Shown in pieces: positions 821 through 50,220 of a stretch of 64,000 nucleotides of DNA (positions are counted from its first letter, which is position 1; each line of letters starts with the position of its first letter). The stretch is from positions 40,166 to 104,165 of the forward strand of contig CAYVYK010000007.1 of NCBI GenBank assembly GCA_964455675.1, given 5' to 3'. The stretch is from an uncultured Methanosarcinales archaeon. Its GTDB lineage: Archaea; Nanobdellota; Nanobdellia; Woesearchaeales; CAYVYK01. The position numbers were made by a program, and so were the translations under genes. The notes beneath the pieces were generated by a model. It searched no databases and was not told the origin of the DNA. It saw only the letters and a list, made by a program, of their open reading frames with translations.

Positions 821-1313
821 GAGAGTATACTTATGGGAATCATCACGGATCACGCACTCGCGTTCACACATCTCGCATATGTATTTCTATTAATCATACT
901 CCTCATCTTTGCGCGCAACACGTATCGCACACTAAGGCAGATCAATGAGAGGTTATAACCTTGGGCACAACAGCACTTGCCATCTATCTTACACAAATTC
1001 CGATTGGTATCGGCATATTCATCGGCGCATATTATTTGCATCGATGCAGAAAGGAACTTGTGGAGATACTGCAGAAGCTTGGGAGATTAAAATAGTCCAG
1101 AATACTACCAAGCTATTGCTCACTTAAGTTGCTCAAGAACTGCCGCTTTCGAGGGAAATTTCTTCTGACAGGAACTGCAGACATAACGCTTCTTGTATTG
1201 ATGGTCCTTAATCACAGTTCCCACTACCTTTTTCAGGAATGTCTCAGCAATCTTTTCCCGGCAGATATCGCACTTCATATAAGAATGGAGTAAGTAGGCG
1301 TTTATATCCTTTG

Positions 1314-3401: not shown

Positions 3402-4517
3402 ATGGCACGAAAAGCAGTAGCAGACAGAAGCGATGTACGTGAAGTCGTGTTCTGCTTCGACACGACTGGATCAATGTATCCTTGCATCGCACAGGTGAAG
3501 CGCAAGGTTGAGAGGATGGTTCGCCACCTGATGCAGGAAGTTCCCGGCATCCGAATCGGGTGCATGTGGCACGGCGACTACATCGACATGCCGAACATGT
3601 TCGGTAAGCTCGAGCTCACGACGGACATCGAGAAGATCTGCGCGTTCATCCGGAACGCACCCCAGACGGACGGAGGCGACACGGCCGAATGCTACGAGCG
3701 GATGCTCCATGAGGGCCTCGGTTTTCGGTGGACACCCGGCGCTCGACGAGTGTTCGTCCTGATCGGCGACGATGTCCCACACGAGCCCTCGTATCCGCAG
3801 AACAAGCAACGCCTCAACTGGCGCGATGAGCTCGATCGGTACACGGAAGCAGGCACGCAGGTGTATGGCGTGCAGTGCCTCGGACGGCATCACGCGGATC
3901 CGTTCTACATGGAAATCGCACGGCGCACGGGTGGCGTTCGCATCCAGCTCAGTCAGTTCCACCTCGTGGAAGACCTGATCTTCGCGATCTGCATGAAGCA
4001 GATTGGCGACGATCGCGTGGCGATATTCGAGCAGGACCTCATCCGCGAGGGCAGAATGAGCCGCGCCGCCGAAACGATCTTCGACGGGCTGCTCGGTCGC
4101 ACCGCACGGAAGTCGCGCTGGGGAGAGGCAGGCCTTGAAGCGGTCGACCCTGCGCGGTTCCAAGTGCTCAGTGTTGACAGCGACCAGGCCATCCGCGAAT
4201 TCGTCCAGAACAACGGTCTGCGCTTCAAGACGGGACGCGGATTCTACGAGTGGACGAAGCGGGAGACGGTGCAGGAGAAGAAGGAGGTCGTTCTCGTCGA
4301 CCGCAACACGGGAGACATGTTCACGGGCGGGCACGCGCGCGAGCTGATCGGCCTACCCTACGGCAACCGCGCGGACATCAACCCGAACGATCTTCCGGCC
4401 GAGCTGCGCAATCGGTTCAAGTTCTTCATCCAGAGCACGAGCTACAACCGCAAGCTCAAAGCTGGCACGCAGTTCCTGTACGAGGTCGAGGACTGGGATC
4501 GCGCTGACGCAGCGTAA
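3402..4517 (+). CDS. cytoplasmic von Willebrand factor A (vWA, MIDAS) domain protein with about 170-aa C-terminal domain of unknown function
   Basis: 371 aa. MIDAS-like DTTGS (VVFCFDTTGSM), later TDGGDT and GDDVPH. Very GC-rich (about 65-70%). SD gaaaggtagg upstream. No signal peptide. Confidence 0.75.
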   Translation: MARKAVADRSDVREVVFCFDTTGSMYPCIAQVKRKVERMVRHLMQEVPGIRIGCMWHGDYIDMPNMFGKLELTTDIEKICAFIRNAPQTDGGDTAECYERMLHEGLGFRWTPGARRVFVLIGDDVPHEPSYPQNKQRLNWRDELDRYTEAGTQVYGVQCLGRHHADPFYMEIARRTGGVRIQLSQFHLVEDLIFAICMKQIGDDRVAIFEQDLIREGRMSRAAETIFDGLLGRTARKSRWGEAGLEAVDPARFQVLSVDSDQAIREFVQNNGLRFKTGRGFYEWTKRETVQEKKEVVLVDRNTGDMFTGGHARELIGLPYGNRADINPNDLPAELRNRFKFFIQSTSYNRKLKAGTQFLYEVEDWDRADAA

Positions 4518-4539
4518 ATCTGCGCGGCAATCATCCTTC

Positions 4540-4573
4540 CGAGGAGGCGCAAAGCCATTGCTTTGCGCCTCCT
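4540..4573 (+). promoter_or_regulatory. perfect 14-bp stem hairpin (gaggaggcgcaaag-ccattg-ctttgcgcctcctc) between vWA gene and downstream gene
   Basis: Inverted repeat read directly. No trailing T-run. Abuts the ATG at 4575. Confidence 0.5.
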
Positions 4574-4574
4574 C

Positions 4575-5093
4575 ATGGAGGAATTCATGACAAGAATTAA
4601 GACGTACGTGTTCAACGCTGCCGTCGCAACATGGACAGGCATTCCCCTCGGCGTGCTGCTCGGCATCGCACACATGCACATGAAACTTGTTGACGACGAC
4701 GAGTGGCTGTCGCTAGCTACGTTTGCGACGATTGCGGTTGCGATTCTCTGCACCGTCGTTCTCCACGAGGCAGTGCACAGTATCGTTGCCCGGTCATACG
4801 GACTTCGCGCGAAGTACGGCGTCAAGTACATCTTCGCATACGTCACATTCACCGAGAAGATGCCACGCAATACGTTCCTTGTGATCGCACTTGCGCCACT
4901 CATCATCCTAAGCCCAGGGCTATTCCTCCTCTACTATCTCGACGTGCTCCGCGTGTTCAGCTGGTTCTGCTTCGTCACGAACACGTTCGGAGCGATCGGT
5001 GATATCTGGATGGCAGCGAACGCACTGCGGCACCCACGAAAATGCATAATACAAGACACGGGGGTTGGCTTTGAAATCTGGGAAGGAGAATAA
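4575..5093 (+). CDS. polytopic membrane protein with HExxH motif (putative zincin-like metallopeptidase, DUF3267-like)
   Basis: Longest ORF starts at TTG 4563. In-frame ATGs at 4575 and 4587, with GGAGG before 4587. Motif LHEAVHSIV lies between hydrophobic helices. About 170 aa. Confidence 0.5.
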   Translation: MEEFMTRIKTYVFNAAVATWTGIPLGVLLGIAHMHMKLVDDDEWLSLATFATIAVAILCTVVLHEAVHSIVARSYGLRAKYGVKYIFAYVTFTEKMPRNTFLVIALAPLIILSPGLFLLYYLDVLRVFSWFCFVTNTFGAIGDIWMAANALRHPRKCIIQDTGVGFEIWEGE

Positions 5094-5098
5094 CTGCC

Positions 5099-6166
5099 AT
5101 GCCCAAGATGGAGATCACATCACTCCTTGACGCGTGCATCAGGATGGACGCGTCAGACATCCACATCTCACCCGGGAAAGCACCGTGCCTTCGTCTGCAC
5201 GGCGAGATCACACCCCTCGAAACGATACCTGTCACAGAGGAGATCGCCGTCCAGCTCATGAAGGCGATTACGCCGGAGCGACATCAACAAGAGCTCATGG
5301 AAGAGGGGACAACTGAGTTCGGTTTCGACTATACTGAGGCAGCGCGCAGATTTCGCTGCTCGATTTACAAGACACGTCAGGGAACGTGCATGGTCCTGCG
5401 CCTCGTGCCAAAGGACATCCTCACATGCCAGGAACTTGGGCTTCCGCCCAAGGTTTCTGAGATCGTACTCAGCAAGGCGCGAGGCATCTTCTTTGTCACC
5501 GGACCCACGGGCTCGGGCAAGTCCACGACGCTTGCGGCGCTCATCCACCTAATCAATTCCACGCAAGCGTGCAAGATTGTGACGTTCGAGGATCCGATCG
5601 AATACGTGCACACACACCGCAGGGCGATCATCGAGCAGCGAGAAGTGGGAACACACCTAGTCGGGTACATCGACGGCATCCATAGGGTGCTGCGACAGGA
5701 TCCGAACGTCATCCTTCTCGGAGAACTGCGCAACCTCGATACGATGGAGGCTGCACTGCGCGCTGCCGAGACAGGCCACCTCGTGTTCGCGACGCTGCAT
5801 ACGAGGGGTTGTTCGAGCGCGATCAACAGAGTCATCGATGCGTTCCCAGAGATCCAGCAGAACCAAATCAAGACGCAACTCGCCATGTCGCTCCTTGGCG
5901 TGCTCAGCCAGATCCTCGTCCCCCGAAAAGGGCCAGGACGCGTCGCCGCGTTCGAATTCATGTACACGGACAACGGCATCCGAAGCATGATCATGCAGGA
6001 CAAGCCCGTGCAGATCGACAGCCACATCCGCACGCACACAGGTAAGGGCATGATGCTCATGGATGATCATCTCTTCCGGATGGTTGAGGCGAAAGTCATC
6101 ACGAGGGAAACCGCGATCGAATACGCGCGGAACACTGCCGAAATGGAGGAACGGCTCAGTCGGTAG
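5099..6166 (+). CDS. pilT: PilT/PilU-family type IV pilus retraction-type ATPase
   Basis: 355 aa. Walker A GPTGSGKST, Walker B ILLGEL, His box FATLHT, and C-terminal GIRSMIMQDKPVQIDS resembling the PilT AIRNLIRE motif. SD ggaaggaga 9 nt upstream. GC about 58%. Confidence 0.85.
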   Translation: MPKMEITSLLDACIRMDASDIHISPGKAPCLRLHGEITPLETIPVTEEIAVQLMKAITPERHQQELMEEGTTEFGFDYTEAARRFRCSIYKTRQGTCMVLRLVPKDILTCQELGLPPKVSEIVLSKARGIFFVTGPTGSGKSTTLAALIHLINSTQACKIVTFEDPIEYVHTHRRAIIEQREVGTHLVGYIDGIHRVLRQDPNVILLGELRNLDTMEAALRAAETGHLVFATLHTRGCSSAINRVIDAFPEIQQNQIKTQLAMSLLGVLSQILVPRKGPGRVAAFEFMYTDNGIRSMIMQDKPVQIDSHIRTHTGKGMMLMDDHLFRMVEAKVITRETAIEYARNTAEMEERLSR

Positions 6167-13666: not shown

Positions 13667-14671
13667 ATGGGCAAGCGTTATCGCATCGGTGTCGTTGCAG
13701 ATATCCATGAGCATCCTGAATACTTAGCTCCAATTCTCTCGAAAATGAAAGCAGCAGGAATAGACGCACTCATCGGCAACGGAGACCTAGGGCAGGGCGC
13801 AGAGATGATCACCGATACCGTTCGGCAACTCGGTGAAACCGGGAAGCAGCTAAACATTCCCGTGCGATGGCACGAGGGAAGCCACGAATCAATTCTCGAC
13901 CACCTGCGCGTTCGCGGCGCACTAGGCGAGGCTTATGAACAGATGAAACATAGTATGGAAGCCCCACTCATTTCATTCGGCGATGAATTCCAGGTTCTCA
14001 CGATACCAGGATCAGACATTCTCTCAGGAAGCGGACAGTTTAAGCTGGATAATAGACTTGCAACAGGACTCTACGAAACAACACAGGGAGAACCGCAACG
14101 CATCGCACCTGAGCAACTTCAACTCATGCTCCAGAACGGATACGGACAGTACCTCATGCAAGTCTACAACATCAACGACGTCGACCAGGTTCTTGCGGGA
14201 AGCAACATCCCGTCGCGCAACACGCTCGCAGTATGTCACGTCCCTGCAGCATTTGAAGACCTAGAACATGGAGTTGACAGGGCATATTACTCAACATTCA
14301 ACACGGCACAAGGAAGAAGCCTTCGACCTGCAGACGCGGTGGAAGCACTCGTCGTGGAACTGTGGGGAGACCTTGGAAGCCTGGACTATCGAGCATATGA
14401 GACAGGCCACAGCCTTGAACACGGAAATGTCGGAAACAAAGCGCTCCGAAGATCCCTCAAAAAGAATAGAGTGCCATCCGCAGTGAACTCCCACATCCAC
14501 GAGAGCGGATGGAACGCACACACTGCTGATGGAACACGTGCGAATGAACGCACAGCATACAAAACACTTTTCCACAATACCGGAAGCGTCGATCAAGGAA
14601 AAGCCGCGATCTATACGGCAGAGGTCACCGACAGAGGAGTCACATTCTCATACGAGAACATCCAAGTTTAG
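13667..14671 (+). CDS. metallophosphoesterase (calcineurin-like phosphoesterase) family protein
   Basis: 334 aa. Motifs GVVADIHEH and GNGDLG match the MPE signatures D-x-H and GD-x-x-D. Confidence 0.7.
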   Translation: MGKRYRIGVVADIHEHPEYLAPILSKMKAAGIDALIGNGDLGQGAEMITDTVRQLGETGKQLNIPVRWHEGSHESILDHLRVRGALGEAYEQMKHSMEAPLISFGDEFQVLTIPGSDILSGSGQFKLDNRLATGLYETTQGEPQRIAPEQLQLMLQNGYGQYLMQVYNINDVDQVLAGSNIPSRNTLAVCHVPAAFEDLEHGVDRAYYSTFNTAQGRSLRPADAVEALVVELWGDLGSLDYRAYETGHSLEHGNVGNKALRRSLKKNRVPSAVNSHIHESGWNAHTADGTRANERTAYKTLFHNTGSVDQGKAAIYTAEVTDRGVTFSYENIQV

Positions 14672-14849: not shown

Positions 14850-15566
14850 ATGGCACGACATGAAATCTCCGTCATATTCCCAACATACAACGAAAGGGGA
14901 AACATCAAGGAGCTACTGGCGGAAACAAAAGCAGCGCTCACCAAGATTGGAACAACGTACGAAATCCTTGTCGTTGATGACAACAGCCCGGACGGAACAA
15001 GTGATGCAGTGCGAACAATTATGAAGAAGGAGAAGCATGTCCACCTACTGCATCGGAAAAACAAACGAGGACTAGCAACCGCGATCAGGGATGGCATCGA
15101 ACGAACGGATGGCAACACCATCATTATATTTGACACCGATCTCTCGCAGCACCCAAGATACATCCCATCACTCTACCGAAAGATGCAGCAGACGAACGCA
15201 GACATGGTTGTCGCATCCCGATACCTGCCTAAAGGAGACATGGAAGGGAACGCATACCGACATACCCTCAGCGCCATGCTCAATCGGGCACTCCGCATGA
15301 TCCTAGGCATCAAACTGACTGACCTTACGGGCGGCTTTTTCATCATCAAGCGCGACTCCCTCTCGGCAATCGATCTGCAAACATCGTTCGTCGGGTATGG
15401 TGACTACTTCTTTACCATGACATACAATCTCAAAAAAGCAGGCAGGGACAACTTCCAGGAGATACCGTATGTATATGAACCTAGAAAGTATGGACAAAGC
15501 AAGACAAAAGTGCTGCGTGTTGGAATAGCATATCTCACAACAGCCTTACGAATTCGGTTTACCTAA
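14850..15566 (+). CDS. GT2 dolichol-phosphate mannosyl/glucosyltransferase-like protein (Dpm1/AglJ-like)
   Basis: Longest ORF begins at 14763. The start is likely ATG 14850 (MARHEISVIFPTYNE) with aggaga SD. Motifs VVDDNSPDGT and FDTDLSQHP. Confidence 0.75.
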   Translation: MARHEISVIFPTYNERGNIKELLAETKAALTKIGTTYEILVVDDNSPDGTSDAVRTIMKKEKHVHLLHRKNKRGLATAIRDGIERTDGNTIIIFDTDLSQHPRYIPSLYRKMQQTNADMVVASRYLPKGDMEGNAYRHTLSAMLNRALRMILGIKLTDLTGGFFIIKRDSLSAIDLQTSFVGYGDYFFTMTYNLKKAGRDNFQEIPYVYEPRKYGQSKTKVLRVGIAYLTTALRIRFT

Positions 15567-16307
15567 AGACCTCGAGCTCCAGCGATCCATGAACGCAGGG
15601 ACAAGGTTGTTCAGTTGAGCAAGACGCTTGACAGAAAATAAAGGATCATTCTCCTCATCGCGCTTCTGCACGGGCGGGTGTTCATAATCGACGCTCACAG
15701 ACACGACGCGCCTCCCATCGATGATGGCGTCCAACACAGGCACATGCAGTGAGTCCCAGAGATCACCGTATTTTCCGTCGTATTCCAGAAAGTATCTTGA
15801 TGATTCACGACTCCATGTGCGCGGCCCAAACCACATGTCGAGAGGAACTCCCGTGATCTGATGCCATACTAGGTTACCGAGAAGCTCAGCATACGCTTGA
15901 GCAGTGGGATACGACTGCAGAGATACCCTCGCAGGAACGACAAGGTCTGCGCGACCCTGCACTATGGGAGAAGCAGTACTGGGCAGAAAAGGAACGTATG
16001 AGAATTTCTCTGGTTCTGCCCATGCGATAACTGACCTATGTGTATCATACGCGGCGCGAATACCCTGACGCCGGCCAGCACCCATTCCTTTGTCTTGCTC
16101 CTCAAATACCCGCGCGCCTGCCAAGGAGAAATGGTGCCTTGTATTATCATCTGATGCATCGATCACCACGCACTCAATACCTGATGCCACCGCAGACTGC
16201 ACTGTTTGAATGGCGCACTGATACCTATTCAGGTCAATACTTGCAGAAGAGTATTTTGTGGCAGTTACCAGAACGATTCTCTCTCCGATCGAATCTGCTG
16301 ATTGCAT
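15546..16307 (-). CDS. hypothetical protein, possible nucleotide-sugar transferase-like fold
   Basis: 253 aa ORF. Motif CVVIDASDDNT is weakly GT-A-like. Convergent 21-nt overlap with the Dpm1-like gene. Confidence 0.3.
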   Translation of the reverse strand: MQSADSIGERIVLVTATKYSSASIDLNRYQCAIQTVQSAVASGIECVVIDASDDNTRHHFSLAGARVFEEQDKGMGAGRRQGIRAAYDTHRSVIAWAEPEKFSYVPFLPSTASPIVQGRADLVVPARVSLQSYPTAQAYAELLGNLVWHQITGVPLDMWFGPRTWSRESSRYFLEYDGKYGDLWDSLHVPVLDAIIDGRRVVSVSVDYEHPPVQKRDEENDPLFSVKRLAQLNNLVPAFMDRWSSRSLGKPNS

Positions 16308-16472
16308 TTACCCATAGGGGGAACAAGGGAGATATAAAGTTAACCTTTTTTTCATCATCTGTTAGTAGTAATCCCCCGAACCCGTAATTTTTTAGTCCTG
16401 ATCCTATTCGTAGGATTATGCTCTATAAGGTTTTAATAGTACCATACCACAACCACAGAAAGGTGATTATGC

Positions 16473-17573
16473 TTGATACACATCCCCGTGCTTGAACCAG
16501 ACATTGGCAAAGATGAACAAGAAGAACTCATGGACGTCATACGGACACGGTGGGTCACTGAGGGGCCTAAGACCAAGCTCATGGAGCAGAAGTTTTCGGA
16601 GATGGTTGGAGTCACTCATGCCATTGCGTACGCGAACGGAACACTCGCGCTCTATGCACTCCTCAAAGCGCATGGCATCAAGGAGGGCGATGAAGTCATC
16701 GTGCCGGATCTCACATTCATCGCAACAGCAAATGCAGTCATTCTCGCAGGAGCAACACCAGTCTTTGTGGATGTTCATCCCTACACATATTGTATCATGC
16801 CAGAAGCAATCGAGCGCGCAATCACAGCACGAACGAAAGCGATCATGCCCGTGCACCTCTACATCCAAATGGCAGACATGCCACGAATCATGGACATCGC
16901 GAAGAAGCATGCGCTCATCGTCATCGAAGACGCCGCCCAGGCAATCGGCATGAAGATTGCGGGAAAACATGCTGGAAGCTTCGGGCATTCAGGAATGATC
17001 AGTTTCTATGGCAATAAAACAATAACCACAGGAGAAGGAGGAATCGTCCTCACGAACGATGACGAGATCGCACGATCATGCTATCGCCTCAAAAACCATG
17101 GAAGGGACAGAAAGGGAATTTTTGTCCATGAACATATCGGGTACAATTTTAGCTTTACCGATCTCCAGGCAGCGGTCGCACTTGGCCAGCTCAAAAAGCT
17201 ACCTCAAGAACTTGAACGAAAAAACCAGATACGAGCGTACTATGAACGTAAGCTCCATGGCATCGTCAAATTCGCATCGGTCGATCCACAATGTACACCT
17301 GTGCACTGGCTAACAAACGTACTCGTCGATGACCCAGGAGCACTCGCGCAGCACCTCGAAACCCTTGGAATCCAAACGCGAAGATTCTTCCTCCCACTTC
17401 ATCAGCAGCCATGCTACAAGCATCTGAAGATCAAAAACAAATTTCCAAACGCAGATGCGGCATACGATCACTGTCTCTCGCTCCCTTCGGGAACAAGACT
17501 AAGCCAAAAGGAACTGGACGAAGTGTGCACGGCAATACAAAAGTTCTATGCACGAACCGCCACCAAGAGATGA
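16473..17573 (+). CDS. DegT/DnrJ/EryC1/StrS-family PLP-dependent sugar aminotransferase
   Basis: 366 aa. TTG start with SD aaaggtga. Conserved PLP lysine in SFYGNKTITTGEGG. N-terminal IPVLEPDIGKDEQEEL is typical. Confidence 0.8.
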   Translation: MIHIPVLEPDIGKDEQEELMDVIRTRWVTEGPKTKLMEQKFSEMVGVTHAIAYANGTLALYALLKAHGIKEGDEVIVPDLTFIATANAVILAGATPVFVDVHPYTYCIMPEAIERAITARTKAIMPVHLYIQMADMPRIMDIAKKHALIVIEDAAQAIGMKIAGKHAGSFGHSGMISFYGNKTITTGEGGIVLTNDDEIARSCYRLKNHGRDRKGIFVHEHIGYNFSFTDLQAAVALGQLKKLPQELERKNQIRAYYERKLHGIVKFASVDPQCTPVHWLTNVLVDDPGALAQHLETLGIQTRRFFLPLHQQPCYKHLKIKNKFPNADAAYDHCLSLPSGTRLSQKELDEVCTAIQKFYARTATKR

Positions 17574-19444
17574 TCCTTGGAATATACAATCCTCCAATTG
17601 GGAGAATCTCGTACTTCACTGCGCAAATCCTCAAGGGGCCTACGTACAACGCTCTCTTGATGGGCACTCTCTATAAAACCCAAGAAACGATCATTCCGAA
17701 TAATTTTCCCAATACCATGAGAGACACTCGCGAGAAAGCGGGATCTCTCGTCACTTGACTCAAGAATTATGACGGTGTTTACGTCCTGCGCTTCAAGTAC
17801 ATCTTGATGCTGTGAAAAATTATTTCTCATTGCGAGATACAGGTTATGCAGCTCCAGCCACTTCGTATCAAGCTCAATCGTATGGCCGACACTTTCTGCG
17901 TAGAGTACGTTATGAGCTGCAATCAAGGGCACAAGCCGTCCATCAGGGTACACAAGATCATAACCACGAGAAGGAACATTGTCCCTAACCCAACGCAAGG
18001 CCTCATAGTCATTGTAGGACAAGGAAAAATATTTCTCAGAGTAAGAGAAAAGGAAGAGACTCAGGAAGACACCATACACGACAAGCAGGATGATCAAATG
18101 GAGTCTCCAATGTCGTGCCTCGAGAAACATCCGCGCAGCAAGCACGGATATTACTGGCGAGAGAAGCATGAGATAGTAACTCCCTATCAAAGGGTAGATC
18201 ACAATGTAATCGATACCCATGCCGATTGAAAGCAGAGCGGCTGCAATACATACCAGAACGACCGGCATCATAAAATCAGCGTCCTTTCGAATCCGTGGGA
18301 TACATACTAAGAGGAGAGCAGGAATCAACAATAGGCCATACCTGATAAGATTACGCTCAATCCCACCACCCTCATTCCACTGGTCAACATCGAGCGACAA
18401 AGAACCCTGGTCGTGAGAGACTATGGCCATATAGTTATCACCGTTTTTTACGAGGAATGGAACAAGAAGAATCAGAACACCAAGCAGGACAGCAGCGCCG
18501 TATTGGATAACCTTCCTACTCGCCAATGCTCTCATGCCCACTCCATTTCTCACCCACATCCCAAGATAAGCCATGATCAAGCACACCACCGCGACAGTCG
18601 CCATATAATCATGAATCGCTATCATCGCACTCACTAGTAAACCGACGAAAAACGCAGACGCCCGATCGAACGGGTCATGCATCAGATACACACACGCAAA
18701 GAAAAGCAGGATAACAACAAGGCGCATGCCGTTCGAGTAGAGAAGTATCGTCTCTGTAACACTGAGGAACGCAACAAACCCCGCGCTCCAAAGGGCCCAT
18801 GTCACATTTCGTGACCAGACCAATACCATGCAATACATCACGAGAGGCAGGAGTGCTGCGAGGCAATGTATCAGAACACCAAAAACGAGTTCTGGAGGAA
18901 GATGAAAACCAATAGCAGGGAACGCTGCAAGGTAGCTCATGCCAGGGGGTATGACCTGCGGCCTCTCAATTGAGAAGCCAAGGGATGAAGTGATGGTTCC
19001 ATCGTTGACGAGCCCTGCCATGACGAGCTGCGAAAAGCTCATGTCGCCGGACGATACTGGCGTGCGAACATAGCTTGCCGCATGAAGCAGGAAACCTCCC
19101 AGAACAAGCAGAGCAATCCATTTCAATCCTTGCGGCCTCCTCAGCGTCCTTAACTCCAAAGAGTACTTCCAGAGACAGAACAATGACAAGAGGATCAGAA
19201 TCAGGTACAGAAGCAGAATGATCGGCTGACGAAACGATGCTGCGAGATCAAGCATCAATCCAAGGAAGATGAACAAAGGCAAAGGGAGCACGGCAGCAAG
19301 GAGAAGAACTCTTTCCCAGTGCTTCTGAACGAATCGTTTCCTTACCAGGGGAAGAAGAAACGGAATGAACAGGATGTAGTGAGCAAGCAACACAACCAAT
19401 ATAAGAATACACTGAAGGACCACGCCTACTGCAAAGTTTGTCAT
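17546..19444 (-). CDS. large polytopic membrane protein (more than 12 TM), putative GT-C-type glycosyltransferase or glycan polymerase
   Basis: 632 aa, almost entirely hydrophobic helices. Located in a glycosylation cluster. No recognisable WWDYG motif. Confidence 0.4.
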   Translation of the reverse strand: MTNFAVGVVLQCILILVVLLAHYILFIPFLLPLVRKRFVQKHWERVLLLAAVLPLPLFIFLGLMLDLAASFRQPIILLLYLILILLSLFCLWKYSLELRTLRRPQGLKWIALLVLGGFLLHAASYVRTPVSSGDMSFSQLVMAGLVNDGTITSSLGFSIERPQVIPPGMSYLAAFPAIGFHLPPELVFGVLIHCLAALLPLVMYCMVLVWSRNVTWALWSAGFVAFLSVTETILLYSNGMRLVVILLFFACVYLMHDPFDRASAFFVGLLVSAMIAIHDYMATVAVVCLIMAYLGMWVRNGVGMRALASRKVIQYGAAVLLGVLILLVPFLVKNGDNYMAIVSHDQGSLSLDVDQWNEGGGIERNLIRYGLLLIPALLLVCIPRIRKDADFMMPVVLVCIAAALLSIGMGIDYIVIYPLIGSYYLMLLSPVISVLAARMFLEARHWRLHLIILLVVYGVFLSLFLFSYSEKYFSLSYNDYEALRWVRDNVPSRGYDLVYPDGRLVPLIAAHNVLYAESVGHTIELDTKWLELHNLYLAMRNNFSQHQDVLEAQDVNTVIILESSDERSRFLASVSHGIGKIIRNDRFLGFIESAHQESVVRRPLEDLRSEVRDSPNWRIVYSKDHLLVAVRA

Positions 19445-19477
19445 GCACCAAGGGTTCAGGATTCACTATAAAATCCT

Positions 19478-20662
19478 TTAGGATGAAATGCCCAGCAAAG
19501 CAGATTTTATAGTGGAAAGATCTTCTTTTGACATCTCCGGATTATTCCCGCAATAGAACCCGCAAGCATGAACCACCGAGGCATTGGGCAAAGAACTCCT
19601 ATCCTTCACGTACTTTCGATAGAATGGGTGACTTGCAATGTTTCCGGCAATCACAGGACGAATCTCGACATCCCTTGACTGGAAAGATTCCTTCAAACGC
19701 CTAAATGAAGCATCCGACTTGCATACAAAGGGGTATGCAAAGTTGGATATAATATCCATACGATCGTTCTTCAACGGAAAGATATCCCGATCAGTGCAAC
19801 ACTTCCTGATATACATGAAGTTATCGTGCCGTTTCTTCACGATCTCATCCCAATACGGGAGCTGCACATTACCAATGAAACCGTTGATTTCCGTCGGACG
19901 AGCGTTATACGCAAGATCATAGAAGGTGTACAGAGCGAAGAAGTCATCAATCTTATGTTTGCTCCGAATCCTTTGCTGCGACTCACGACTCAGGTTACGA
20001 TCCCAGCCATGAGCGCGGACGATCACGAGCATTTCGGCGAGGTCTTCATCATCTGTGCACACCATCCCTCCCTCAATCGTTGAGAGATGATGCCCCACAA
20101 AAAAGGAGAACGTTGACGCAACACCAAAATTTCCAAGCAGAGTCCCCTTATATTTCGAACCAAGAGATTCACAGTTGTCCTCGAGCAGAATAATCCCTTG
20201 GTCTTTGCAATACAAAGCAATCTTGTCAATGTCAGAACACAAGCCAAGAACATTAGTCAGGAACAAGGCCTTCAATCCCTTGCCAGCAGATTTTAATGTT
20301 GCACTACTGACATTCAAAGTATCCAATTCGCAGTCGATAAGAACAGGATCCAGGCCGAGCTGAATGACTGGCATTACATTTGTCGCCCAGGTGACACTTG
20401 ATACTCCCACGCGGTCTCCCTTCTTCAGACGACCTAAGTTAAGCAATGCCTGCAGAAGAACAAGGTTTGCCGAACTACCGCTCGATACAAAGACAGAGTA
20501 TTTACGCTGCTGCTTTTGCGCAAACGCTGCTTCAAACTTTTTACACTCGGCGCCCATGCTCAGCTGACCAGCCTTCCTGATGAAGTCACACAAGAGATTC
20601 TTTGTCTCGGATTCATGATAAAATGTAGACTTGATGAGTTTGACTACCATGGGATTCACCAC
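19478..20662 (-). CDS. DegT-family enzyme with His replacing the PLP lysine (ColD/E1-like sugar 3-dehydratase candidate)
   Basis: 394 aa. SSGSSANLVLLQAL, and FFVGHHLSTIEGGMVCTDD where the canonical K is replaced by H, as in ColD and E1. Adjacent to gmd. Confidence 0.65.
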   Translation of the reverse strand: MVNPMVVKLIKSTFYHESETKNLLCDFIRKAGQLSMGAECKKFEAAFAQKQQRKYSVFVSSGSSANLVLLQALLNLGRLKKGDRVGVSSVTWATNVMPVIQLGLDPVLIDCELDTLNVSSATLKSAGKGLKALFLTNVLGLCSDIDKIALYCKDQGIILLEDNCESLGSKYKGTLLGNFGVASTFSFFVGHHLSTIEGGMVCTDDEDLAEMLVIVRAHGWDRNLSRESQQRIRSKHKIDDFFALYTFYDLAYNARPTEINGFIGNVQLPYWDEIVKKRHDNFMYIRKCCTDRDIFPLKNDRMDIISNFAYPFVCKSDASFRRLKESFQSRDVEIRPVIAGNIASHPFYRKYVKDRSSLPNASVVHACGFYCGNNPEMSKEDLSTIKSALLGISS

Positions 20663-20815
20663 GGTTCTCTAGCTTGGATTCGATATTTAATGGTTATGCT
20701 AGAGTAAGGCTGCAGAAAAAGAGAAGGACTCTTGGCATATCAGAGCGGAATCCATAAACCTTATAAAGAGCCCTGCGCTCCTTGAGGCTATTGCTACTAC
20801 TGTAGGATAGGTAAA

Positions 20816-21868
20816 ATGAAGAAGCGTGCGTTAATCACGGGGATTACAGGGCAAGACGGTCCATACCTCGCCCAGCTGCTGCTTTCAAAAGGGTACACAG
20901 TCTATGGCACCTACCGACGCAATTCAACCCCTAATTTCTGGAGACTGCAAAGTCTCAAACTCATGGACAAGATCATCCTCATTCCAGCAGATCTTGCAGA
21001 CATGAGTTCGCTCCTAGAAGCCGTGACAATCGCAGATCCTCACGAGATCTACAATCTTGCCGCACAAAGCTTCGTTGAAGCATCTTTTGACCAACCGCTC
21101 CTAACAACAGAAATTGACGGCGCAAGCCCACTCAAATTCCTTGAGATCATCAGGCATCTCAACAAGAACATCAAGTTCTACCAGGCATCAACAAGCGAGC
21201 TGTACGGAACAACACCACAGATGCCACAAAATGAGAAGACCCCATTCAATCCTAATTCCCCATACGCTGCGGCAAAGCTTTACGCATTCCATCAAGTCAG
21301 GATCTACAGGGAATCGTATGGCATTTTCGCAACAAACGGAATCCTATTCAACCATGAGTCACCCTTGCGAGGACTTGACTTCGTCACACGAAAGATCACG
21401 AACTCAGTCGCACGGATCAAGCTCGGACTGCAAAAAGACCTGAACCTTGGAAACCTGCAGGCAAAACGAGACTGGGGGTTTGCACCTGAGTACGTTGAGG
21501 CGATGTGGAGAATCCTTCAGCATAATCGCCCGGACGATTTTGTAATTGCCACAGGAGAAACACATACAGTTCAGGAGTTTGCAGAACAGGCATTTGCTGA
21601 AGTAGGACTCAACTGGAAAGACCATGTCAAATTCGACCAGAACCTCTGCAGGCCGCTTGACGTACCAGTCCTTTGCGGGGACCCAAGCAAAGCACAACGC
21701 GTACTTGGGTGGAAACCAAAAGTTACGTTCAAAAAACTCGTGGCAGTCATGGTAAACGCAGACCTTGACCGGTGGCAACGTTATCTCAATGGTGAATCCG
21801 TAACATGGGATGCCCCAACACACCCCCATGAGATGTATATCCGCAGAAGAAGCGGAAAACGCAAGTAG
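20816..21868 (+). CDS. gmd: GDP-mannose 4,6-dehydratase
   Basis: 350 aa. N-terminal ALITGITGQDGPYLAQLLLSKGY Rossmann motif. SDR extended-family catalytic region with STSELYG. Confidence 0.85.
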   Translation: MKKRALITGITGQDGPYLAQLLLSKGYTVYGTYRRNSTPNFWRLQSLKLMDKIILIPADLADMSSLLEAVTIADPHEIYNLAAQSFVEASFDQPLLTTEIDGASPLKFLEIIRHLNKNIKFYQASTSELYGTTPQMPQNEKTPFNPNSPYAAAKLYAFHQVRIYRESYGIFATNGILFNHESPLRGLDFVTRKITNSVARIKLGLQKDLNLGNLQAKRDWGFAPEYVEAMWRILQHNRPDDFVIATGETHTVQEFAEQAFAEVGLNWKDHVKFDQNLCRPLDVPVLCGDPSKAQRVLGWKPKVTFKKLVAVMVNADLDRWQRYLNGESVTWDAPTHPHEMYIRRRSGKRK

Positions 21869-23857: not shown

Positions 23858-24670
23858 CTAATTCCTCACATTCTCAAAGGGAGGAGTACCAAGATATTGC
23901 CGGACTCTCTCTTCGGTGCGCTTCGCAAAGATGTTGTCCTTCCGATTAAGTCCAGTGCCCTTCAATGGAAGCTTATCCGCGTGATAGAATTCAATCCCCT
24001 TGCGGTGCAACTCAAACCGATACGTTGCCAAGTCATCAAAAGAGGAGAAATAAACTTGCGAAAAATCATCGTGATAGTGCGGATTTGACCGGATCACAAG
24101 ACTATCTTTCTCCTTTAAGAAAAAATATCGCGCACCTCTTCGGAGCTGGAGCATGAGGTTATCGGCGGGAACCCTTGTCCTTAGCTCATGATCAACAAGC
24201 TCACCGAGAACAAGAGGGCAGTTGCCAAAATTATATATCGAATGCGCAAAGCCGCCAGGCACGACCATCTTGTCCCCAGCTTTTGCGATAATCAATTGAC
24301 ACTTCTTGTCTCCTTGAATGAGCATCCCGCACAATCCATAATACACTTGGTATATCTCGGGAAAATTCTGGAAATGCCCTAAAGTCTTGTTAAACTCGGA
24401 ACCGAGAAGCCGCTTATCAAACACAAAAACATTGTGATAGATTGTAGACTCGGTATCCTTCCTTTGTACGAGATCCTGATAGCATACATACGGAACAGCT
24501 GGAGCACATACCCCTCGATCGGCAAGCACATACCGCATGTCCAAGATGTCCCTCCGCAGCTCAGCACGCCACTTCCACAATCCATTATCAAGAACAAGAG
24601 AATCCTCCTCCAGCTCCAAGGGAATACCAGAGTATTTCTGCAGAGAAACCATACTCCCAAGAGAGCCCAT
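23858..24670 (-). CDS. cupin-fold protein of unknown function
   Basis: 270 aa ORF on the opposite strand between gatD and gatE. Motif KMVVPGGFAHSIYNFG is cupin-like. Confidence 0.4.
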   Translation of the reverse strand: MGSLGSMVSLQKYSGIPLELEEDSLVLDNGLWKWRAELRRDILDMRYVLADRGVCAPAVPYVCYQDLVQRKDTESTIYHNVFVFDKRLLGSEFNKTLGHFQNFPEIYQVYYGLCGMLIQGDKKCQLIIAKAGDKMVVPGGFAHSIYNFGNCPLVLGELVDHELRTRVPADNLMLQLRRGARYFFLKEKDSLVIRSNPHYHDDFSQVYFSSFDDLATYRFELHRKGIEFYHADKLPLKGTGLNRKDNIFAKRTEERVRQYLGTPPFENVRN

Positions 24671-24725
24671 ATTTTATTTAAAGGTTGCCGAAAGCTTATT
24701 AAGCAGAGATTTCATTCTCGACTCA

Positions 24726-26147
24726 GTGGTATTTGACTATAAAGAACTGGGATTCAAGTGCGGACTTGAAATTCATCAACAGCTCGAGGGTCTAAAACTA
24801 TTCTGCAACTGCAAGACACTCAATTCGGCTGAGGGAACAGAGAACAAAGCACAACGAAGACTCCAAGCAGTAGCGGGAGAGATGGGGGACATTGATATTG
24901 CAGTAAGCCATGAGTTATCCAAAGAGCGCAAATTCTTCTACGAGAGCTCATCTGCGGACACCTGCATCATGGAATACGATGAGGAACCGCCACACTCCAT
25001 GAATAGAGAAGCGGTGAAGACATGCCTACAACTTTGCAAGCTCATGAACTGCACAATCGTGGACGAGATCCACACAATGAGAAAGGCAGTTATTGATGGG
25101 AGCAACGTGACAGGATTTCAGAGAACCGCGCTCGTCGGAAGGAACGGATGGATCGAGACAAGCCAGGGGCGCGTCGGCATCGCCACCGTACTCCTTGAAG
25201 AAGAGGCAGCACAAAAAATCAAGCAAGCAAAAAAATATACCAAGTACCGGCTTGACCGCCTCGGGATGGGCATGATCGAAATCGCAACGCAAGCAGAGAT
25301 CAAAGATCCTGATCATGCAAAAGAGACAGCAGAAAGAATTGGGCTGATGTGCAGAAGCCTTCCAAGCGTGAAGCGAGGCATCGGAACCATCCGGCAGGAT
25401 GTCAATGTCTCGATCAGCAAGGGAGCGCGCGTCGAAATCAAGGGATTCCAGGATCTACGGAGCATACCAAAGGTAATCGACAACGAAATAGCCCGACAGC
25501 TTGACCTCATCACGAAAGGCAAAGCAGTACCAAAAGAAGTACGAAAGGCAGAGTCCGATTTCTCAACAAGTTTCCTTCGCCCCATGCCAGGAGCTGCACG
25601 ACTTTATCCCGAAACTGACGTGCTCCCCTTCGTCCCCCAAAAGGAAAGCATTGAGGTGCCCGAGACCATTGAAGATGCAGGAAAGCGCATCAAAGCACGC
25701 GGCATAGATCAAGAGCTTGCCAAACAGATAGCAAAAAAAGGTCGCACTGACTTCTTCGAGAAGGTCATTACCGACCACCCAACACTCAATCCTGCCTTCG
25801 TCGCAGAAACCATCATCTCACTTCCGAAGGAAATACGCCGCAAACACAATGTGGATGTTGAGACCCTTAGCGAGGAGCAATGGATGACAATCTTTAGGCA
25901 CCTTGCCAGTGGAACACTTTCAAAAACAGTATTGTCCGATGCGCTTGTTGACCTTTGCAAGGGAACTTTTGACATAAAGAAATACCAGAGCGTGAGCGAT
26001 GAAGATATTGAACGAGAAATAAAAAAGAGTATTGCGGAAAACCCGACTATCACAGATGGCGCTCTCATGGGCAGAATCATGGGCGCATTTAAAGGAAGAG
26101 CTGATGGAAAGAGAGTAAATGAGCTCGTAAGGAAACTGAAGAGTTAG
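24726..26147 (+). CDS. gatE: Glu-tRNA(Gln) amidotransferase subunit E (short form)
   Basis: Track ORF starts at 24537 but would overlap the divergent cupin gene by 134 nt. GTG 24726 gives the typical N-terminus VVFDYKELGFKCGLEIHQQL. C-terminal YqeY/GatB-like tail. About 473 aa, versus about 620 aa for a typical GatE. Confidence 0.8.
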   Translation: MVFDYKELGFKCGLEIHQQLEGLKLFCNCKTLNSAEGTENKAQRRLQAVAGEMGDIDIAVSHELSKERKFFYESSSADTCIMEYDEEPPHSMNREAVKTCLQLCKLMNCTIVDEIHTMRKAVIDGSNVTGFQRTALVGRNGWIETSQGRVGIATVLLEEEAAQKIKQAKKYTKYRLDRLGMGMIEIATQAEIKDPDHAKETAERIGLMCRSLPSVKRGIGTIRQDVNVSISKGARVEIKGFQDLRSIPKVIDNEIARQLDLITKGKAVPKEVRKAESDFSTSFLRPMPGAARLYPETDVLPFVPQKESIEVPETIEDAGKRIKARGIDQELAKQIAKKGRTDFFEKVITDHPTLNPAFVAETIISLPKEIRRKHNVDVETLSEEQWMTIFRHLASGTLSKTVLSDALVDLCKGTFDIKKYQSVSDEDIEREIKKSIAENPTITDGALMGRIMGAFKGRADGKRVNELVRKLKS

Positions 26148-47123: not shown

Positions 47124-47125
47124 CC

Positions 47126-50195: not shown

Positions 50196-50220
50196 TAACT
50201 TTGAAACGAAGGTGAAAACC

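What the first reader, a model, noticed from the sequence alone, without database searches (positions are those of the whole stretch)
14850..21868. Surface-glycan cluster pairing Gmd with a ColD/E1-like His-variant DegT enzyme and a canonical DegT aminotransferase
gmd (20816) sits next to a DegT-family gene whose PLP lysine is replaced by His (FFVGHHLSTIEGG). This is the hallmark of GDP-4-keto-6-deoxymannose 3-dehydratase ColD and CDP-hexulose 3-dehydrase E1, and implies 3,6-dideoxyhexose (colitose-like) synthesis. A second DegT with the normal Lys (SFYGNKTITTGEGG) could make a perosamine-like amino sugar from the same Gmd product. The cluster also holds a Dpm1-like GT2 and a 632-aa polytopic membrane protein (GT-C-like candidate); a Wzx flippase lies at 60847. 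Dideoxy sugars are rarely documented in archaeal glycans.
Basis: partly seen in the sequence, partly recalled or inferred. Interest (0 to 1): 0.5.

Follow-up and report, generated by a model that had tools for sequence, protein, structure and literature searches.

The report
Archaeal deoxy-amino-sugar gene cluster without reductase
An archaeal surface-sugar gene cluster really does pair a GDP-mannose dehydratase with a ColD-type 3-dehydratase, but it has no colitose-forming reductase in 64 kb and instead has a perosamine-synthase-like aminotransferase, so it may make a 4-amino-3,4,6-trideoxy sugar, which as I recall has been made only in the test tube.

Summary
Window 14850-21868 holds six intact genes:
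- a Dpm1/ArnC-like GT2;
- a Lys-bearing DegT that is 40% identical to GDP-perosamine synthase;
- a 632-aa, roughly 13-TM orphan membrane protein;
- a DegT whose Schiff-base Lys is His;
- Gmd.

The His aligns exactly with ColD His188. The protein lacks the E1/SpnQ Cys cluster. 119 of 120 close homologues keep the HH motif.

The colitose interpretation is only partly supported. The closest ColD-like relatives (CPR bacteria, DPANN archaea) sit in gmd-colD-colC-like triads, yet this window has no SDR other than Gmd in 64 kb.

The Lys-DegT belongs to a clade that is tightly linked to His-variant DegTs. In one subclade, 18 of 18 metagenomic loci with flanks have one 0-10 bp away. The best relative (L038) lies in a reductase-less Gmd / His-DegT / Lys-DegT operon.

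My best reading, at about 0.4, is Gmd, then 3-dehydratase, then 4-aminotransferase, giving GDP-4-amino-3,4,6-trideoxyhexose. This parallels SpnQ/SpnR and the Cook & Holden in-vitro trideoxysugar. The sugar would then go to a lipid carrier.

The main rival, at about 0.35, is colitose made with a ColC encoded elsewhere, plus separate perosamine. The GT-C guess for the membrane protein is untestable here. Interest is moderate.

The parts
14850..15566 (+). GT2a. A 238-aa GT2 catalytic domain of the polyprenyl-phosphate sugar synthase type (Dpm1/DPMS/ArnC/GtrB-like). No transmembrane segment.
   Evidence: Pfam Glycos_transf_2 117 bits. NCBIfam best hits are ArnC at 71.5 bits and AglJ at 63 bits, both far below their cut-offs. 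The seven best PDB chains are all polyprenyl-P glycosyltransferases: P. furiosus DPMS 5mlz at 91.7 bits, then ArnC and GtrB. No hydrophobic segment was found. The gene caller's 238-aa product agrees with this start.
15546..16307 (-). p253. A 253-aa soluble GT-A-fold glycosyltransferase belonging to a small family in which every taxonomically informative member or context is archaeal.
   Evidence: Pfam gives only a sub-threshold GT2 hit (18 bits). 41 homologues were found. The AF2 model built with that alignment has pLDDT 94.9. Foldseek against the PDB finds GpgS, ArnC, mannosylglycerate synthase and GtrB, with E about 2e-9 and TM about 0.6. Homologues lie beside Gmd plus a His-variant DegT plus a PMT_2 GT-C (L118, L121), beside colD/colC (L013), beside AglB (L119, L120), or among housekeeping genes (L123, L124).
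16473..17573 (+). DegT-K. A PLP aminotransferase with the canonical Asn-Lys dyad (Lys182, codon 17016-17018), of the GDP-perosamine-synthase type. The start is uncertain: TTG 16473, GTG 16488 (used by the gene caller) or ATG 16530.
   Evidence: Pfam DegT 390 bits. Best PDB hit is C. crescentus perosamine synthetase 3bn1 at 254.7 bits, 40% identity. NCBIfam LegC-family 300 bits and PseC 276 bits are both below their cut-offs. The clade is linked to His-variant DegTs in metagenomic loci.
17546..19444 (-). memb632. A 632-aa orphan polytopic membrane protein with about 13 hydrophobic segments and a 166-aa C-terminal soluble domain. It starts 33 bp downstream of the ColD-like gene and is probably co-transcribed with it. 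It is a positional analogue of the PMT_2-type GT-C genes in related clusters.
   Evidence: No Pfam or NCBIfam hit, even at E<=10. It found only itself in the 5.8-billion-sequence word search. In the full HMMER scan of 1.84 billion representatives it found itself plus one 147-aa fragment at E=1e-4. hhalign against PMT_2-like proteins from L118, L121 and L036 gave probability 0.2%.
19478..20662 (-). ColD-like PMP-dependent NDP-4-keto-6-deoxyhexose 3-dehydratase. The catalytic His (residue 191 of the 394-aa ORF, codon 20090-20092) replaces the Schiff-base Lys. The probable start is ATG 20650.
   Evidence: Best PDB hit is E. coli ColD 2gms at 214.9 bits (36% identity over 337 residues), against 132 bits for E1. 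The His aligns with ColD His188, and the H188K and H188N mutant chains differ at exactly that column. The residues aligned with ColD Asp159, Glu162, Ser183 and Asn248 are conserved; Ser187 is Gly. There is no Cys between residues 203 and 287, which is where E1 has CYCAPGCDNTC. HH is kept in 119 of 120 homologues. NCBIfam RfbH scores 198.6 against a 423 cut-off.
20651..20815 (.). 165-bp divergent intergenic region between the ColD-like gene and gmd. Presumed to be a shared promoter region (inferred, not tested).
   Evidence: Coordinates. No promoter analysis was attempted.
20816..21868 (+). [quoted passage not shown] It is the only SDR in the 64-kb window.
   Evidence: Pfam GDP_Man_Dehyd 410.4 bits. 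TIGR01472 403.3 bits against a 415 cut-off. The only window hit to an Fcl/ColC-like probe is this gene, at 23.7 bits. Pfam scans of all other ORFs of 90 aa or more show no Epimerase/SDR domain.

Best explanation
The six genes form a compact cassette for a GDP-mannose-derived deoxysugar and its transfer.

Shown by homology:
- Gmd converts GDP-mannose to GDP-4-keto-6-deoxy-D-mannose.
- The His-variant DegT is a ColD-type enzyme. It is PMP-dependent, has no Fe-S cluster and is recycled by glutamate. It removes the 3-OH to give GDP-4-keto-3,6-dideoxy-D-mannose.

Inferred:
- No 4-reductase/epimerase is encoded within 64 kb. A perosamine-synthase-type aminotransferase lies in the same cluster. The 4-keto group is therefore most likely aminated rather than reduced. 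The product would be GDP-4-amino-3,4,6-trideoxy-D-hexose ('3-deoxy-perosamine').
- The same aminotransferase may also make some GDP-perosamine directly from the Gmd product.
- No N-acyltransferase is present, so the amine would stay free.

More speculative:
- The Dpm1/ArnC-like GT2 loads the sugar onto dolichyl phosphate.
- The 13-TM orphan protein, co-transcribed with the dehydratase, transfers it to a surface acceptor outside the membrane. This is Arn-pathway logic: ArnB aminotransferase, then ArnC, then ArnT.
- The soluble GT-A protein p253 is a further, more general archaeal glycosyltransferase.
For: (1) Enzyme identities come.

(2) The catalytic His is confirmed and the E1 Cys cluster is absent.

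(3) There is no SDR or Fcl/ColC-like gene in the window apart from Gmd. By contrast, 23 of 30 genomic loci with ColD-like relatives have a non-Gmd SDR within 10 kb, and 16 have one within 3 kb. The closest relatives have a 311-312-aa SDR directly after the ColD-like gene.

(4) In an NJ tree of DegT-K relatives, all 18 loci of the sister subclade that have flanking sequence carry a His-variant DegT 0-10 bp away. Both gene orders occur, and stop and start often overlap.

(5) The top-scoring DegT-K relative (L038, 407 bits, tied with L040) follows, in one operon, the best Gmd relative (484 bits) and then a His-variant DegT. The 21-kb locus also has Wzx, Wzy, GT4 and PMT_2 genes and no SDR reductase.

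(6) There is biochemical precedent. The best PDB match of DegT-K is C. crescentus perosamine synthase 3bn1. [quoted passage not shown] The title was seen as reference 60 of PMC6124807. That the sugar was made from the ColD product is from my memory.

(7) The sequence 3-dehydrase then 4-aminotransferase is established for TDP-sugars, for example SpnQ and the forosamine-type pathways (PMC8987622; PMC8944477).

(8) Related clusters L118 and L121 combine a PMT_2 GT-C of about 650 aa, p253, Gmd, a His-variant DegT, an SDR and a small GT2. This supports the transfer half of the model by position.
Against: - The window's ColD-like protein is phylogenetically closest to enzymes from canonical gmd-colD-colC-like triads. 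A ColC could lie in the roughly 45 kb of the contig outside the window or elsewhere in the genome.
- Most metagenomic loci with the DegT-K / His-DegT pair also contain an Fcl-like SDR within a few kb. The pair therefore does not exclude colitose synthesis.
- Within the window's own subclade, L039, L043 and L040 pair DegT-K with Gmd and/or an Fcl-like gene and show no His-variant in the available flanks. More distant relatives sit next to Gmd alone, as plain perosamine synthases would.
- In the window the two DegT genes are 1.9 kb apart on opposite strands. They are not translationally coupled.
- DegT substrate specificity cannot be read reliably from sequence.
- No ManB/ManC for GDP-mannose supply is present in the window.
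- The lipid-carrier and GT-C half of the model rests on weak family similarity (GT2a lacks the TM anchor of DPMS, ArnC and GtrB) and on position only for memb632.
Confidence: 0.4

Rival explanations
1. Two ordinary parallel branches from the Gmd product. GDP-L-colitose would be made by the ColD-like enzyme plus a ColC-type epimerase/reductase encoded outside the window. GDP-perosamine would be made by DegT-K acting directly on GDP-4-keto-6-deoxymannose.
For: The closest ColD-like relatives (61-63% identity) lie in gmd-colD-SDR(311-312 aa) operons. Fcl-like genes are adjacent to the ColD-like gene in L001, L003, L013, L018, L021, L028 and L030. DegT-K is 40% identical to a characterised perosamine synthase. 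More distant relatives of DegT-K sit next to Gmd alone in L069, L070 and L089. Only 64 kb of a contig of at least 109.6 kb could be inspected.
Against: There is no SDR other than Gmd in 64 kb plus 1.5 kb upstream, although relatives keep the reductase adjacent. The model does not explain why the DegT-K clade is so consistently fused to His-variant 3-dehydratases (18 of 18 in one subclade), nor the reductase-less triad in L038.
Confidence: 0.35
2. A 3,6-dideoxy-D-hexose is made without ColC. The 4-keto group of the ColD-like product would be reduced by Gmd itself acting bifunctionally. Some GMDs also have GDP-4-keto-6-deoxymannose reductase (Rmd-like) activity; this is from my memory of the P. 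aeruginosa and PBCV-1 enzymes. DegT-K would serve a separate perosamine branch.
For: Gmd is the only SDR present. Several Peribacteria loci carry two tandem Gmd paralogues after the ColD-like gene and no Fcl-like gene. This hints that Gmd-family proteins can take the reductase role.
Against: The window has a single Gmd copy, and nothing in its sequence was shown to indicate reductase activity. The idea is purely conjectural.
Confidence: 0.08
3. The His-variant DegT is not a dehydratase in vivo. It could be a slow aminotransferase, a regulatory protein or a decaying paralogue. The cluster would then simply make GDP-perosamine.
For: The residue equivalent to ColD Ser187 is Gly. Identity to ColD is only 36%.
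Against: The GHH motif is conserved in 119 of 120 homologues, which share 58-63% identity across phyla. This argues for strong purifying selection on this exact active site. The PLP/PMP-contact residues are conserved. The ORF is intact and full length, and Gmd is adjacent in most relatives.
Confidence: 0.05

Closest known systems
GDP-L-colitose pathway of E. coli O55/O111 and Yersinia pseudotuberculosis (Gmd, ColD/WbdK, ColC)
   Same: Gmd sits next to a DegT-family enzyme in which His replaces the Schiff-base Lys. The enzyme has no Fe-S cluster and its PLP/PMP-contact residues are conserved. ColD 2gms is the best solved relative, at 215 bits and 36% identity.
   Different: No ColC-type epimerase/reductase in 64 kb. 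The Ser187 equivalent is Gly. The host is archaeal. The cluster also carries a Per-like aminotransferase, a Dpm1-like GT2 and an orphan 13-TM protein, rather than O-antigen Wzx/Wzy and GT genes.
In-vitro ColD + GDP-perosamine synthase route to a 'novel trideoxysugar' (Cook & Holden 2008, Biochemistry 47:2833; structure 3bn1)
   Same: The same two enzyme types, a ColD-type dehydratase and a Per-type aminotransferase, are encoded together with Gmd. 3bn1 is the best PDB match of DegT-K.
   Different: That reaction was an engineered in-vitro combination of enzymes from two organisms (from memory; only the title was verified). Here, and in about 19 metagenomic loci, the pair is naturally co-encoded.
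SpnQ/SpnR-type steps of TDP-forosamine, ossamine and tolyposamine biosynthesis (3-dehydrase followed by 4-aminotransferase)
   Same: The same chemical logic: a His-variant DegT removes the 3-OH, and a Lys-DegT then aminates C-4 (PMC8987622; PMC8944477).
   Different: Those enzymes act on TDP-2,6-dideoxy sugars, carry a [2Fe-2S] cluster and need a reductase. The window enzyme is ColD-type (no Cys cluster) and is linked to a GDP-sugar 4,6-dehydratase. L038's His-DegT, in contrast, does have an E1-like Cys-rich stretch.
GDP-perosamine pathway (Gmd + Per) of V. cholerae O1, E. coli O157 and C. crescentus
   Same: Gmd and a Per-like Asn-Lys aminotransferase are present.
   Different: A 3-dehydratase lies in the same cluster. 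There is no N-acetyl- or N-formyl-transferase.
Arn (L-Ara4N lipid A modification) pathway: ArnB, ArnC, ArnT
   Same: The cluster combines a DegT aminotransferase, a GT2 whose best NCBIfam hit is ArnC and whose best PDB hits are DPMS, ArnC and GtrB, and a large polytopic membrane protein with a C-terminal soluble domain.
   Different: The substrate would be a GDP-hexose, not a UDP-pentose. There are no ArnA or ArnD equivalents in the cluster. GT2a lacks TM helices. memb632 has no detectable similarity to ArnT or any other GT-C.

Membership tests
ColD (GDP-4-keto-6-deoxy-D-mannose 3-dehydratase) | DegT/aspartate-aminotransferase-fold enzyme with His in place of the Schiff-base Lys | tested here: met
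   Pfam DegT 210 bits. His191 aligns with ColD His188, and the H188K and H188N mutant chains mismatch exactly there. The feature is described as the hallmark in PMC8987622.
ColD (GDP-4-keto-6-deoxy-D-mannose 3-dehydratase) | No [2Fe-2S] four-Cys motif; this distinguishes ColD from E1 and SpnQ | tested here: met
   E1 has CYCAPGCDNTC about 30-40 residues after the His. The window protein has no Cys between residues 203 and 287, and there it resembles ColD's RAHGW(T/D)RNL stretch.
ColD (GDP-4-keto-6-deoxy-D-mannose 3-dehydratase) | Conserved cofactor-contact residues (ColD Asp159, Glu162, Ser183, Ser187, Asn248; the roles are from my memory of Cook et al. 2006) | tested here: inconclusive
   The Asp159, Glu162, Ser183 and Asn248 equivalents are identical in the alignment. 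The Ser187 equivalent is Gly, and this holds throughout the GHH family.
ColD (GDP-4-keto-6-deoxy-D-mannose 3-dehydratase) | Works on the Gmd product (gene linkage to gmd) | tested here: met
   gmd lies divergently, 165 bp away. Gmd is in the locus in 23 of 30 relatives and within 1.5 kb in 18.
ColD (GDP-4-keto-6-deoxy-D-mannose 3-dehydratase) | Partnered with ColC (GDP-L-colitose synthase, an Fcl-like SDR) | tested here: not met
   None in the 64-kb window or the 1.5 kb upstream of it. The rest of the genome is not available.
ColD (GDP-4-keto-6-deoxy-D-mannose 3-dehydratase) | Catalytic activity: 3-deoxygenation with glutamate-dependent PMP regeneration | not testable with these tools
   Requires an enzyme assay.
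E1 / RfbH (CDP-6-deoxy-L-threo-D-glycero-4-hexulose 3-dehydrase) | Reaches the curated RfbH model score, has the Cys cluster, and has an E3 reductase partner | tested here: not met
   NF011936 scores 198.6 bits against a 423 cut-off. PDB E1 scores 132 bits against 215 for ColD. There is no Cys cluster. No CDP-glucose dehydratase or E3-like reductase domain appears in the Pfam scans of the window.
GDP-perosamine synthase (Per) | DegT aminotransferase with an Asn-Lys dyad, closest to characterised Per enzymes, and linked to gmd | tested here: inconclusive
   The GNK dyad is present. The best PDB hit is Per 3bn1 at 254.7 bits and 40% identity. gmd is 3.2 kb away. However, NCBIfam's best hits are LegC at 300 bits and PseC at 276 bits, both below their cut-offs. 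No curated Per model was matched, and specificity cannot be read from sequence.
[quoted passage not shown] | Reaches the curated family thresholds | tested here: inconclusive
   Pfam PF16363 scores 410.4 bits against a cut-off of 27, so that threshold is met. The TIGR01472 equivalog model scores 403.3 bits against 415, narrowly missed. The GITGQDG, TSELYG, YAAAK and NHESP motifs are visible in the translation.
Polyprenyl-phosphate glycosyltransferases (DPMS/Dpm1, ArnC, GtrB; GT2) | GT2 catalytic domain most similar to this subgroup, with C-terminal membrane helices in the prokaryotic members | tested here: inconclusive
   All seven best PDB hits belong to this subgroup; DPMS 5mlz scores 91.7 bits. 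The 238-aa protein has no hydrophobic segment. All NCBIfam equivalog scores are far below their cut-offs.
GT-C glycosyltransferases (PMT_2, ArnT, STT3/AglB) | Sequence or profile similarity to a GT-C family | tested here: not met
   There is no Pfam or NCBIfam hit even at E<=10. No homologue was found among 1.84 billion representatives. hhalign against PMT_2-like proteins gave probability 0.2%.
GT-C glycosyltransferases (PMT_2, ArnT, STT3/AglB) | Architecture: about 11-13 TM helices plus a soluble extracytoplasmic domain, with the GT-C fold | tested here: inconclusive
   Hydropathy shows about 13 TM segments and a 166-aa C-terminal domain. Related clusters have a PMT_2 gene at the corresponding place.

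The most novel reading that the evidence does not exclude
GDP-4-amino-3,4,6-trideoxy-D-hexose (3-deoxy-perosamine) is a natural, fairly widespread nucleotide sugar. As I recall, it is known only as an in-vitro curiosity. It would be made by a conserved Gmd / His-variant 3-dehydratase / Per-type aminotransferase module. This archaeon would carry the module in a reductase-less form and attach the free-amine sugar to its surface through a dolichol-phosphate carrier and a completely novel 13-TM transferase with no detectable relatives.
Probability: 0.3. Interest if true: 0.6.

Novelty: new variant of a known kind. Interest (0 to 1): 0.45.

Why it matters
If the two DegT enzymes act in series, this cluster and about 19 environmental loci with the same dehydratase/aminotransferase pair would define a natural GDP-linked trideoxy-amino-sugar pathway. 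That would add a monosaccharide to the known glycan alphabet. It would also give a testable function to a large, mostly unannotated clade of DegT genes in uncultured bacteria and archaea.

For small-celled, probably host-attached archaea, a cationic deoxysugar on the surface could matter for cell-cell contact.

If instead a ColC lies elsewhere in the genome, the cluster is an ordinary colitose/perosamine cassette in an unusual host. Its value would then be mainly better annotation. JGI labels several of the closest homologues as CDP-sugar E1 enzymes. For the window protein, and by extension its GHH-motif relatives, the ColD-type features and the frequent Gmd adjacency argue against that label.

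Tried and rejected
- Looked for a ColC/Fcl-like reductase in the window. I ran Pfam on every non-overlapping ORF of 90 aa or more and phmmer with the L030 Fcl-like protein against all stop-to-stop frames. Only Gmd was found.
- Tried to extend the window by looking up its end genes. This gained 1.5 kb upstream, which holds more GT2 genes, and nothing downstream. The 109.6-kb NCBI contig could not be fetched. The genome is not among the GTDB representatives scanned.
- Tried to name the organism through cluster names, Rfam and tRNA. No names came back, and the window holds only a tRNA-Thr. An archaeal origin rests on GatD/GatE, the RFC small subunit, TrmB and KaiC and on p253 relatives in Nanoarchaeota or other archaeal contexts. 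DPANN affiliation is likely but not shown.
- Tried to classify memb632 with a word-based search, a full HMMER scan of 1.84 billion proteins, Pfam at E<=10 and hhalign against PMT_2 proteins. All were negative.
- Wasted one structure job on p253 without an alignment (pLDDT 38.7). The repeat with 40 homologues succeeded. This left no job for memb632.
- Rejected the E1/RfbH assignment that JGI gives to homologues. The score is below the cut-off and there is no Cys cluster.
- Rejected the idea that p253 is specific to this sugar. Several homologues lie among housekeeping genes or next to AglB.
- Literature searches for a natural 4-amino-3,4,6-trideoxyhexose found nothing in the held library. The Cook & Holden papers themselves are not held.

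Full report
**Observation**

The interval 14850-21868 contains six intact genes in alternating orientation:
- GT2a, 14850-15566 (+)
- p253, 15546-16307 (-)
- DegT-K, 16473-17573 (+)
- memb632, 17546-19444 (-)
- ColD-like, 19478-20662 (-); the gene caller starts it at ATG 20650, giving the 390-aa P0001
- Gmd, 20816-21868 (+)

Pfam and NCBIfam confirm a GT2, two DegT-family proteins and a GDP-mannose 4,6-dehydratase. FFVGHHLSTIEGG lies at residues 187-199 of the minus-strand DegT, with the first His encoded at 20090-20092. SFYGNKTITTGEGG lies in the plus-strand DegT, with the Lys encoded at 17016-17018.

**Is the His really at the Schiff-base position?**

Yes. phmmer against PDB sequences gives E. 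coli ColD (2gms) as the best hit, at 214.9 bits over query 31-375 and ColD 27-375. The E1 dehydrase follows at 132 bits and perosamine synthase at 87 bits.

In the printed alignments the first His of GHH pairs with the first His of ColD's SHH. The deposited H188K (2r0t) and H188N (3b8x) mutants mismatch the query at exactly that column. This pins it to His188 without relying on numbering.

The alignment is full length and the ORF is uninterrupted. The motif is not a one-off, because 119 of the 120 best database homologues have HH at this place.

**ColD-type or E1-type?**

The review PMC8987622 states that the His-for-Lys change is the signature of NDP-sugar 3-dehydratases. It also states that E1 and SpnQ additionally bind a [2Fe-2S] cluster through four cysteines and need a reductase. 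ColD has no cluster and finishes the reaction by hydrolysis and glutamate-driven PMP regeneration.

The E1 sequence shown has CYCAPGCDNTC about 30-40 residues after the His. The window protein has no cysteine between residues 203 and 287. There it reads RAHGWDRNL, like ColD's RAHGWTRNL.

The NCBIfam RfbH model scores 198.6 bits against a cut-off of 423. The residues aligned with ColD Asp159, Glu162, Ser183 and Asn248 are identical. The Ser187 equivalent is Gly throughout this family; the roles of these residues are from my memory of the Holden-lab structures. Identity to ColD is 36%.

The protein is a ColD-type 3-dehydratase by every sequence criterion I could test. It is a distant member of the family.

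**The other enzymes**

- DegT-K has the Asn-Lys dyad. It is most similar to C. crescentus GDP-perosamine synthase 3bn1, at 254.7 bits and 40% identity. The NCBIfam LegC and PseC models score below their cut-offs.
- GT2a's seven best PDB hits are all polyprenyl-phosphate glycosyltransferases: P. furiosus DPMS at 91.7 bits, then ArnC and GtrB. It has no membrane segment.
- p253 gave only a sub-threshold GT2 hit. With an alignment of 40 homologues, AlphaFold gave pLDDT 94.9. Foldseek finds GT-A enzymes (GpgS, ArnC, mannosylglycerate synthase, GtrB) at E about 1e-9 and TM about 0.6.
- memb632 has about 13 hydrophobic segments and a 166-aa C-terminal domain, but it is a true orphan. It found only itself in the 5.8-billion-sequence word search. 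In a full HMMER pass over 1.84 billion representatives it found itself plus one 147-aa fragment at E=1e-4. It has no Pfam hit even at E<=10 and no profile similarity to PMT_2 proteins.

**The missing reductase**

Colitose needs ColC, an Fcl-like SDR that epimerises C-5 and reduces C-4. Pfam scans of every ORF of 90 aa or more in the 64 kb found no SDR except Gmd. A phmmer search of all reading frames with an Fcl-like probe gave the same result. The 1.5 kb recovered upstream of the window holds only more GT2 genes.

This is unusual for the family.
- The closest relatives (61-63% identity; mostly Patescibacteria/Peribacteria and some Woesearchaeota) lie in gmd / colD-like / SDR(311-312 aa) operons.
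- An Fcl-like gene is adjacent or close to the ColD-like gene in L001, L003, L013, L018, L021, L028 and L030.
- 23 of 30 genomic loci have some non-Gmd SDR within 10 kb.

I could not inspect the rest of the genome, so a distant ColC is not excluded.

**What the aminotransferase's relatives say**

A metagenome scan with DegT-K returned 80 loci. I classified every DegT in them by the residue aligned with the Schiff-base Lys and built a neighbour-joining tree. The close relatives (330-407 bits) form one clade with two subclades.

- In the first subclade, all 18 loci that have flanking sequence carry a His-variant DegT 0-10 bp from the Lys-DegT. Both gene orders occur, and stop and start codons often overlap.
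- The window falls in the second subclade. Its top-scoring member, L038 (407 bits, tied with L040), has the operon Gmd (484 bits, the best Gmd relative), then His-variant DegT, then DegT-K, then GT4. Wzx, Wzy and PMT_2 genes are nearby, and there is no SDR reductase in 21 kb.
- L038's His-variant is E1-like and keeps a Cys-rich stretch.
- Other members of the second subclade (L039, L040, L043) instead have an Fcl-like gene directly before DegT-K.
- More distant relatives sit next to Gmd alone, as plain perosamine synthases would.

**Mechanism proposed**

Gmd makes GDP-4-keto-6-deoxymannose. The ColD-type enzyme removes the 3-OH. The 4-keto-3,6-dideoxy product is then aminated by DegT-K to a GDP-4-amino-3,4,6-trideoxyhexose.

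Two precedents support the chemistry.
- It parallels the SpnQ then 4-aminotransferase steps of the TDP-forosamine-type pathways.
[quoted passage not shown] Only the title was verified. That the sugar came from the ColD product is from my memory.

Transfer is modelled on the Arn and Dpm1 logic. GT2a would load the sugar onto a polyprenyl phosphate. The 13-TM protein, whose start lies 33 bp after the dehydratase gene's stop, would act outside the membrane.

Position supports this. Clusters L118 and L121 combine a PMT_2 GT-C of about 650 aa, a p253 homologue, Gmd, a His-variant DegT, an Fcl-like SDR and a small GT2. p253 itself is not specific to this sugar. Other homologues lie beside AglB or among ribosomal and RNase P genes in archaeal contigs.

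**Weighing**

I give about 0.85 to the claim that this is a functional Gmd plus ColD-type 3-deoxygenation cassette. For the end product I give about 0.4 to the serial route (the trideoxy-amino sugar) and about 0.35 to colitose with a remote ColC plus a separate perosamine branch. Small weights go to a bifunctional Gmd and to an inactive His-variant.

The main counter-evidence to the serial route is threefold.
- The dehydratase's own nearest relatives are in canonical triads.
- Most pair-bearing metagenomic loci also contain an Fcl-like gene.
- The two DegT genes in the window are not adjacent.

**Novelty and interest**

Each enzyme is a new member of a known family. PMC7725333 places the L-colitose pathway in its common group of sugars and discusses its absence only in the TACK archaea.

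What is new is the reductase-less arrangement. So is the recurrent natural pairing of a 3-dehydratase with a Per-type aminotransferase, for which I found no description in the held literature. This makes a specific, cheap biochemical prediction. Interest is moderate, at 0.45.

Noticed in passing
window 39234-40841 (+): A 535-aa ThyX with two Thy1-domain stretches. I recall a typical ThyX being roughly half this length, so it looks like a tandem-duplicated or fused flavin-dependent thymidylate synthase.
   Followed up: no
window 4001-6000: GC is 0.58, against 0.45-0.51 in every other 2-kb bin. The stretch holds a DUF3267 zincin-like gene and the start of a T2SSE/archaellum-type ATPase. It could be a foreign insert or a compositional oddity.
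   Followed up: no
window 45849-52281 and 55313-58858 (+): Five consecutive ORFs (424, 660, 366, 352 and 314 aa) and a 1181-aa ORF have no Pfam hit at all. This is a block of unknown proteins between TrmB/MarR-like regulators and RFC/KaiC genes.
   Followed up: no
window 23858-24670 (-) and 24537-26147 (+): A 270-aa cupin-type GPI-like ORF (PF06560, 30 bits) overlaps the first 134 nt of the GatE ORF. The GatB_N domain of GatE begins only at residue 74, so the true GatE start is probably downstream. The cupin could be a phosphoglucose or phosphomannose isomerase feeding GDP-mannose synthesis.
   Followed up: no
window 92-2111 and L033: A second glycan-related group lies at the window's left edge. 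It comprises two GT2 genes (one only in the 1.5 kb upstream, L033) and a polysaccharide deacetylase (ArnD-type family) at 1314-2111.
   Followed up: partly
L038 7534-11068: An E1-like His-variant DegT has 3bcx as its best PDB hit (191 bits). It carries a Cys-rich stretch CDCAVCRRAQGKC aligned with E1's Fe-S motif. It sits directly between a Gmd and a Per-like aminotransferase. An Fe-S-type 3-dehydrase in a GDP-sugar context would be unusual.
   Followed up: partly
L118 4017-5222, L121 7475-8701, L050 8748-9941, L083/L085: This is a third lineage of His-variant DegTs, with motif (C/A)H(I/F)LVTGVGG. It is closer to perosamine synthase (219 bits) than to ColD (158 bits). Members lie next to Gmd or to DegT-K. 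This suggests the Lys-to-His switch arose more than once.
   Followed up: partly
L004, L006, L009, L019 (Peribacteria genome loci): Two tandem Gmd paralogues (about 330 and 290 bits) follow the ColD-like gene, with no Fcl-like gene nearby. The second copy may act as an Rmd-type 4-reductase.
   Followed up: no
window 13667-14671 (+): A 334-aa calcineurin-like metallophosphoesterase lies 178 bp upstream of GT2a on the same strand, and is also present on the short Logan contig L032. Any link to the sugar cluster is unknown.
   Followed up: no
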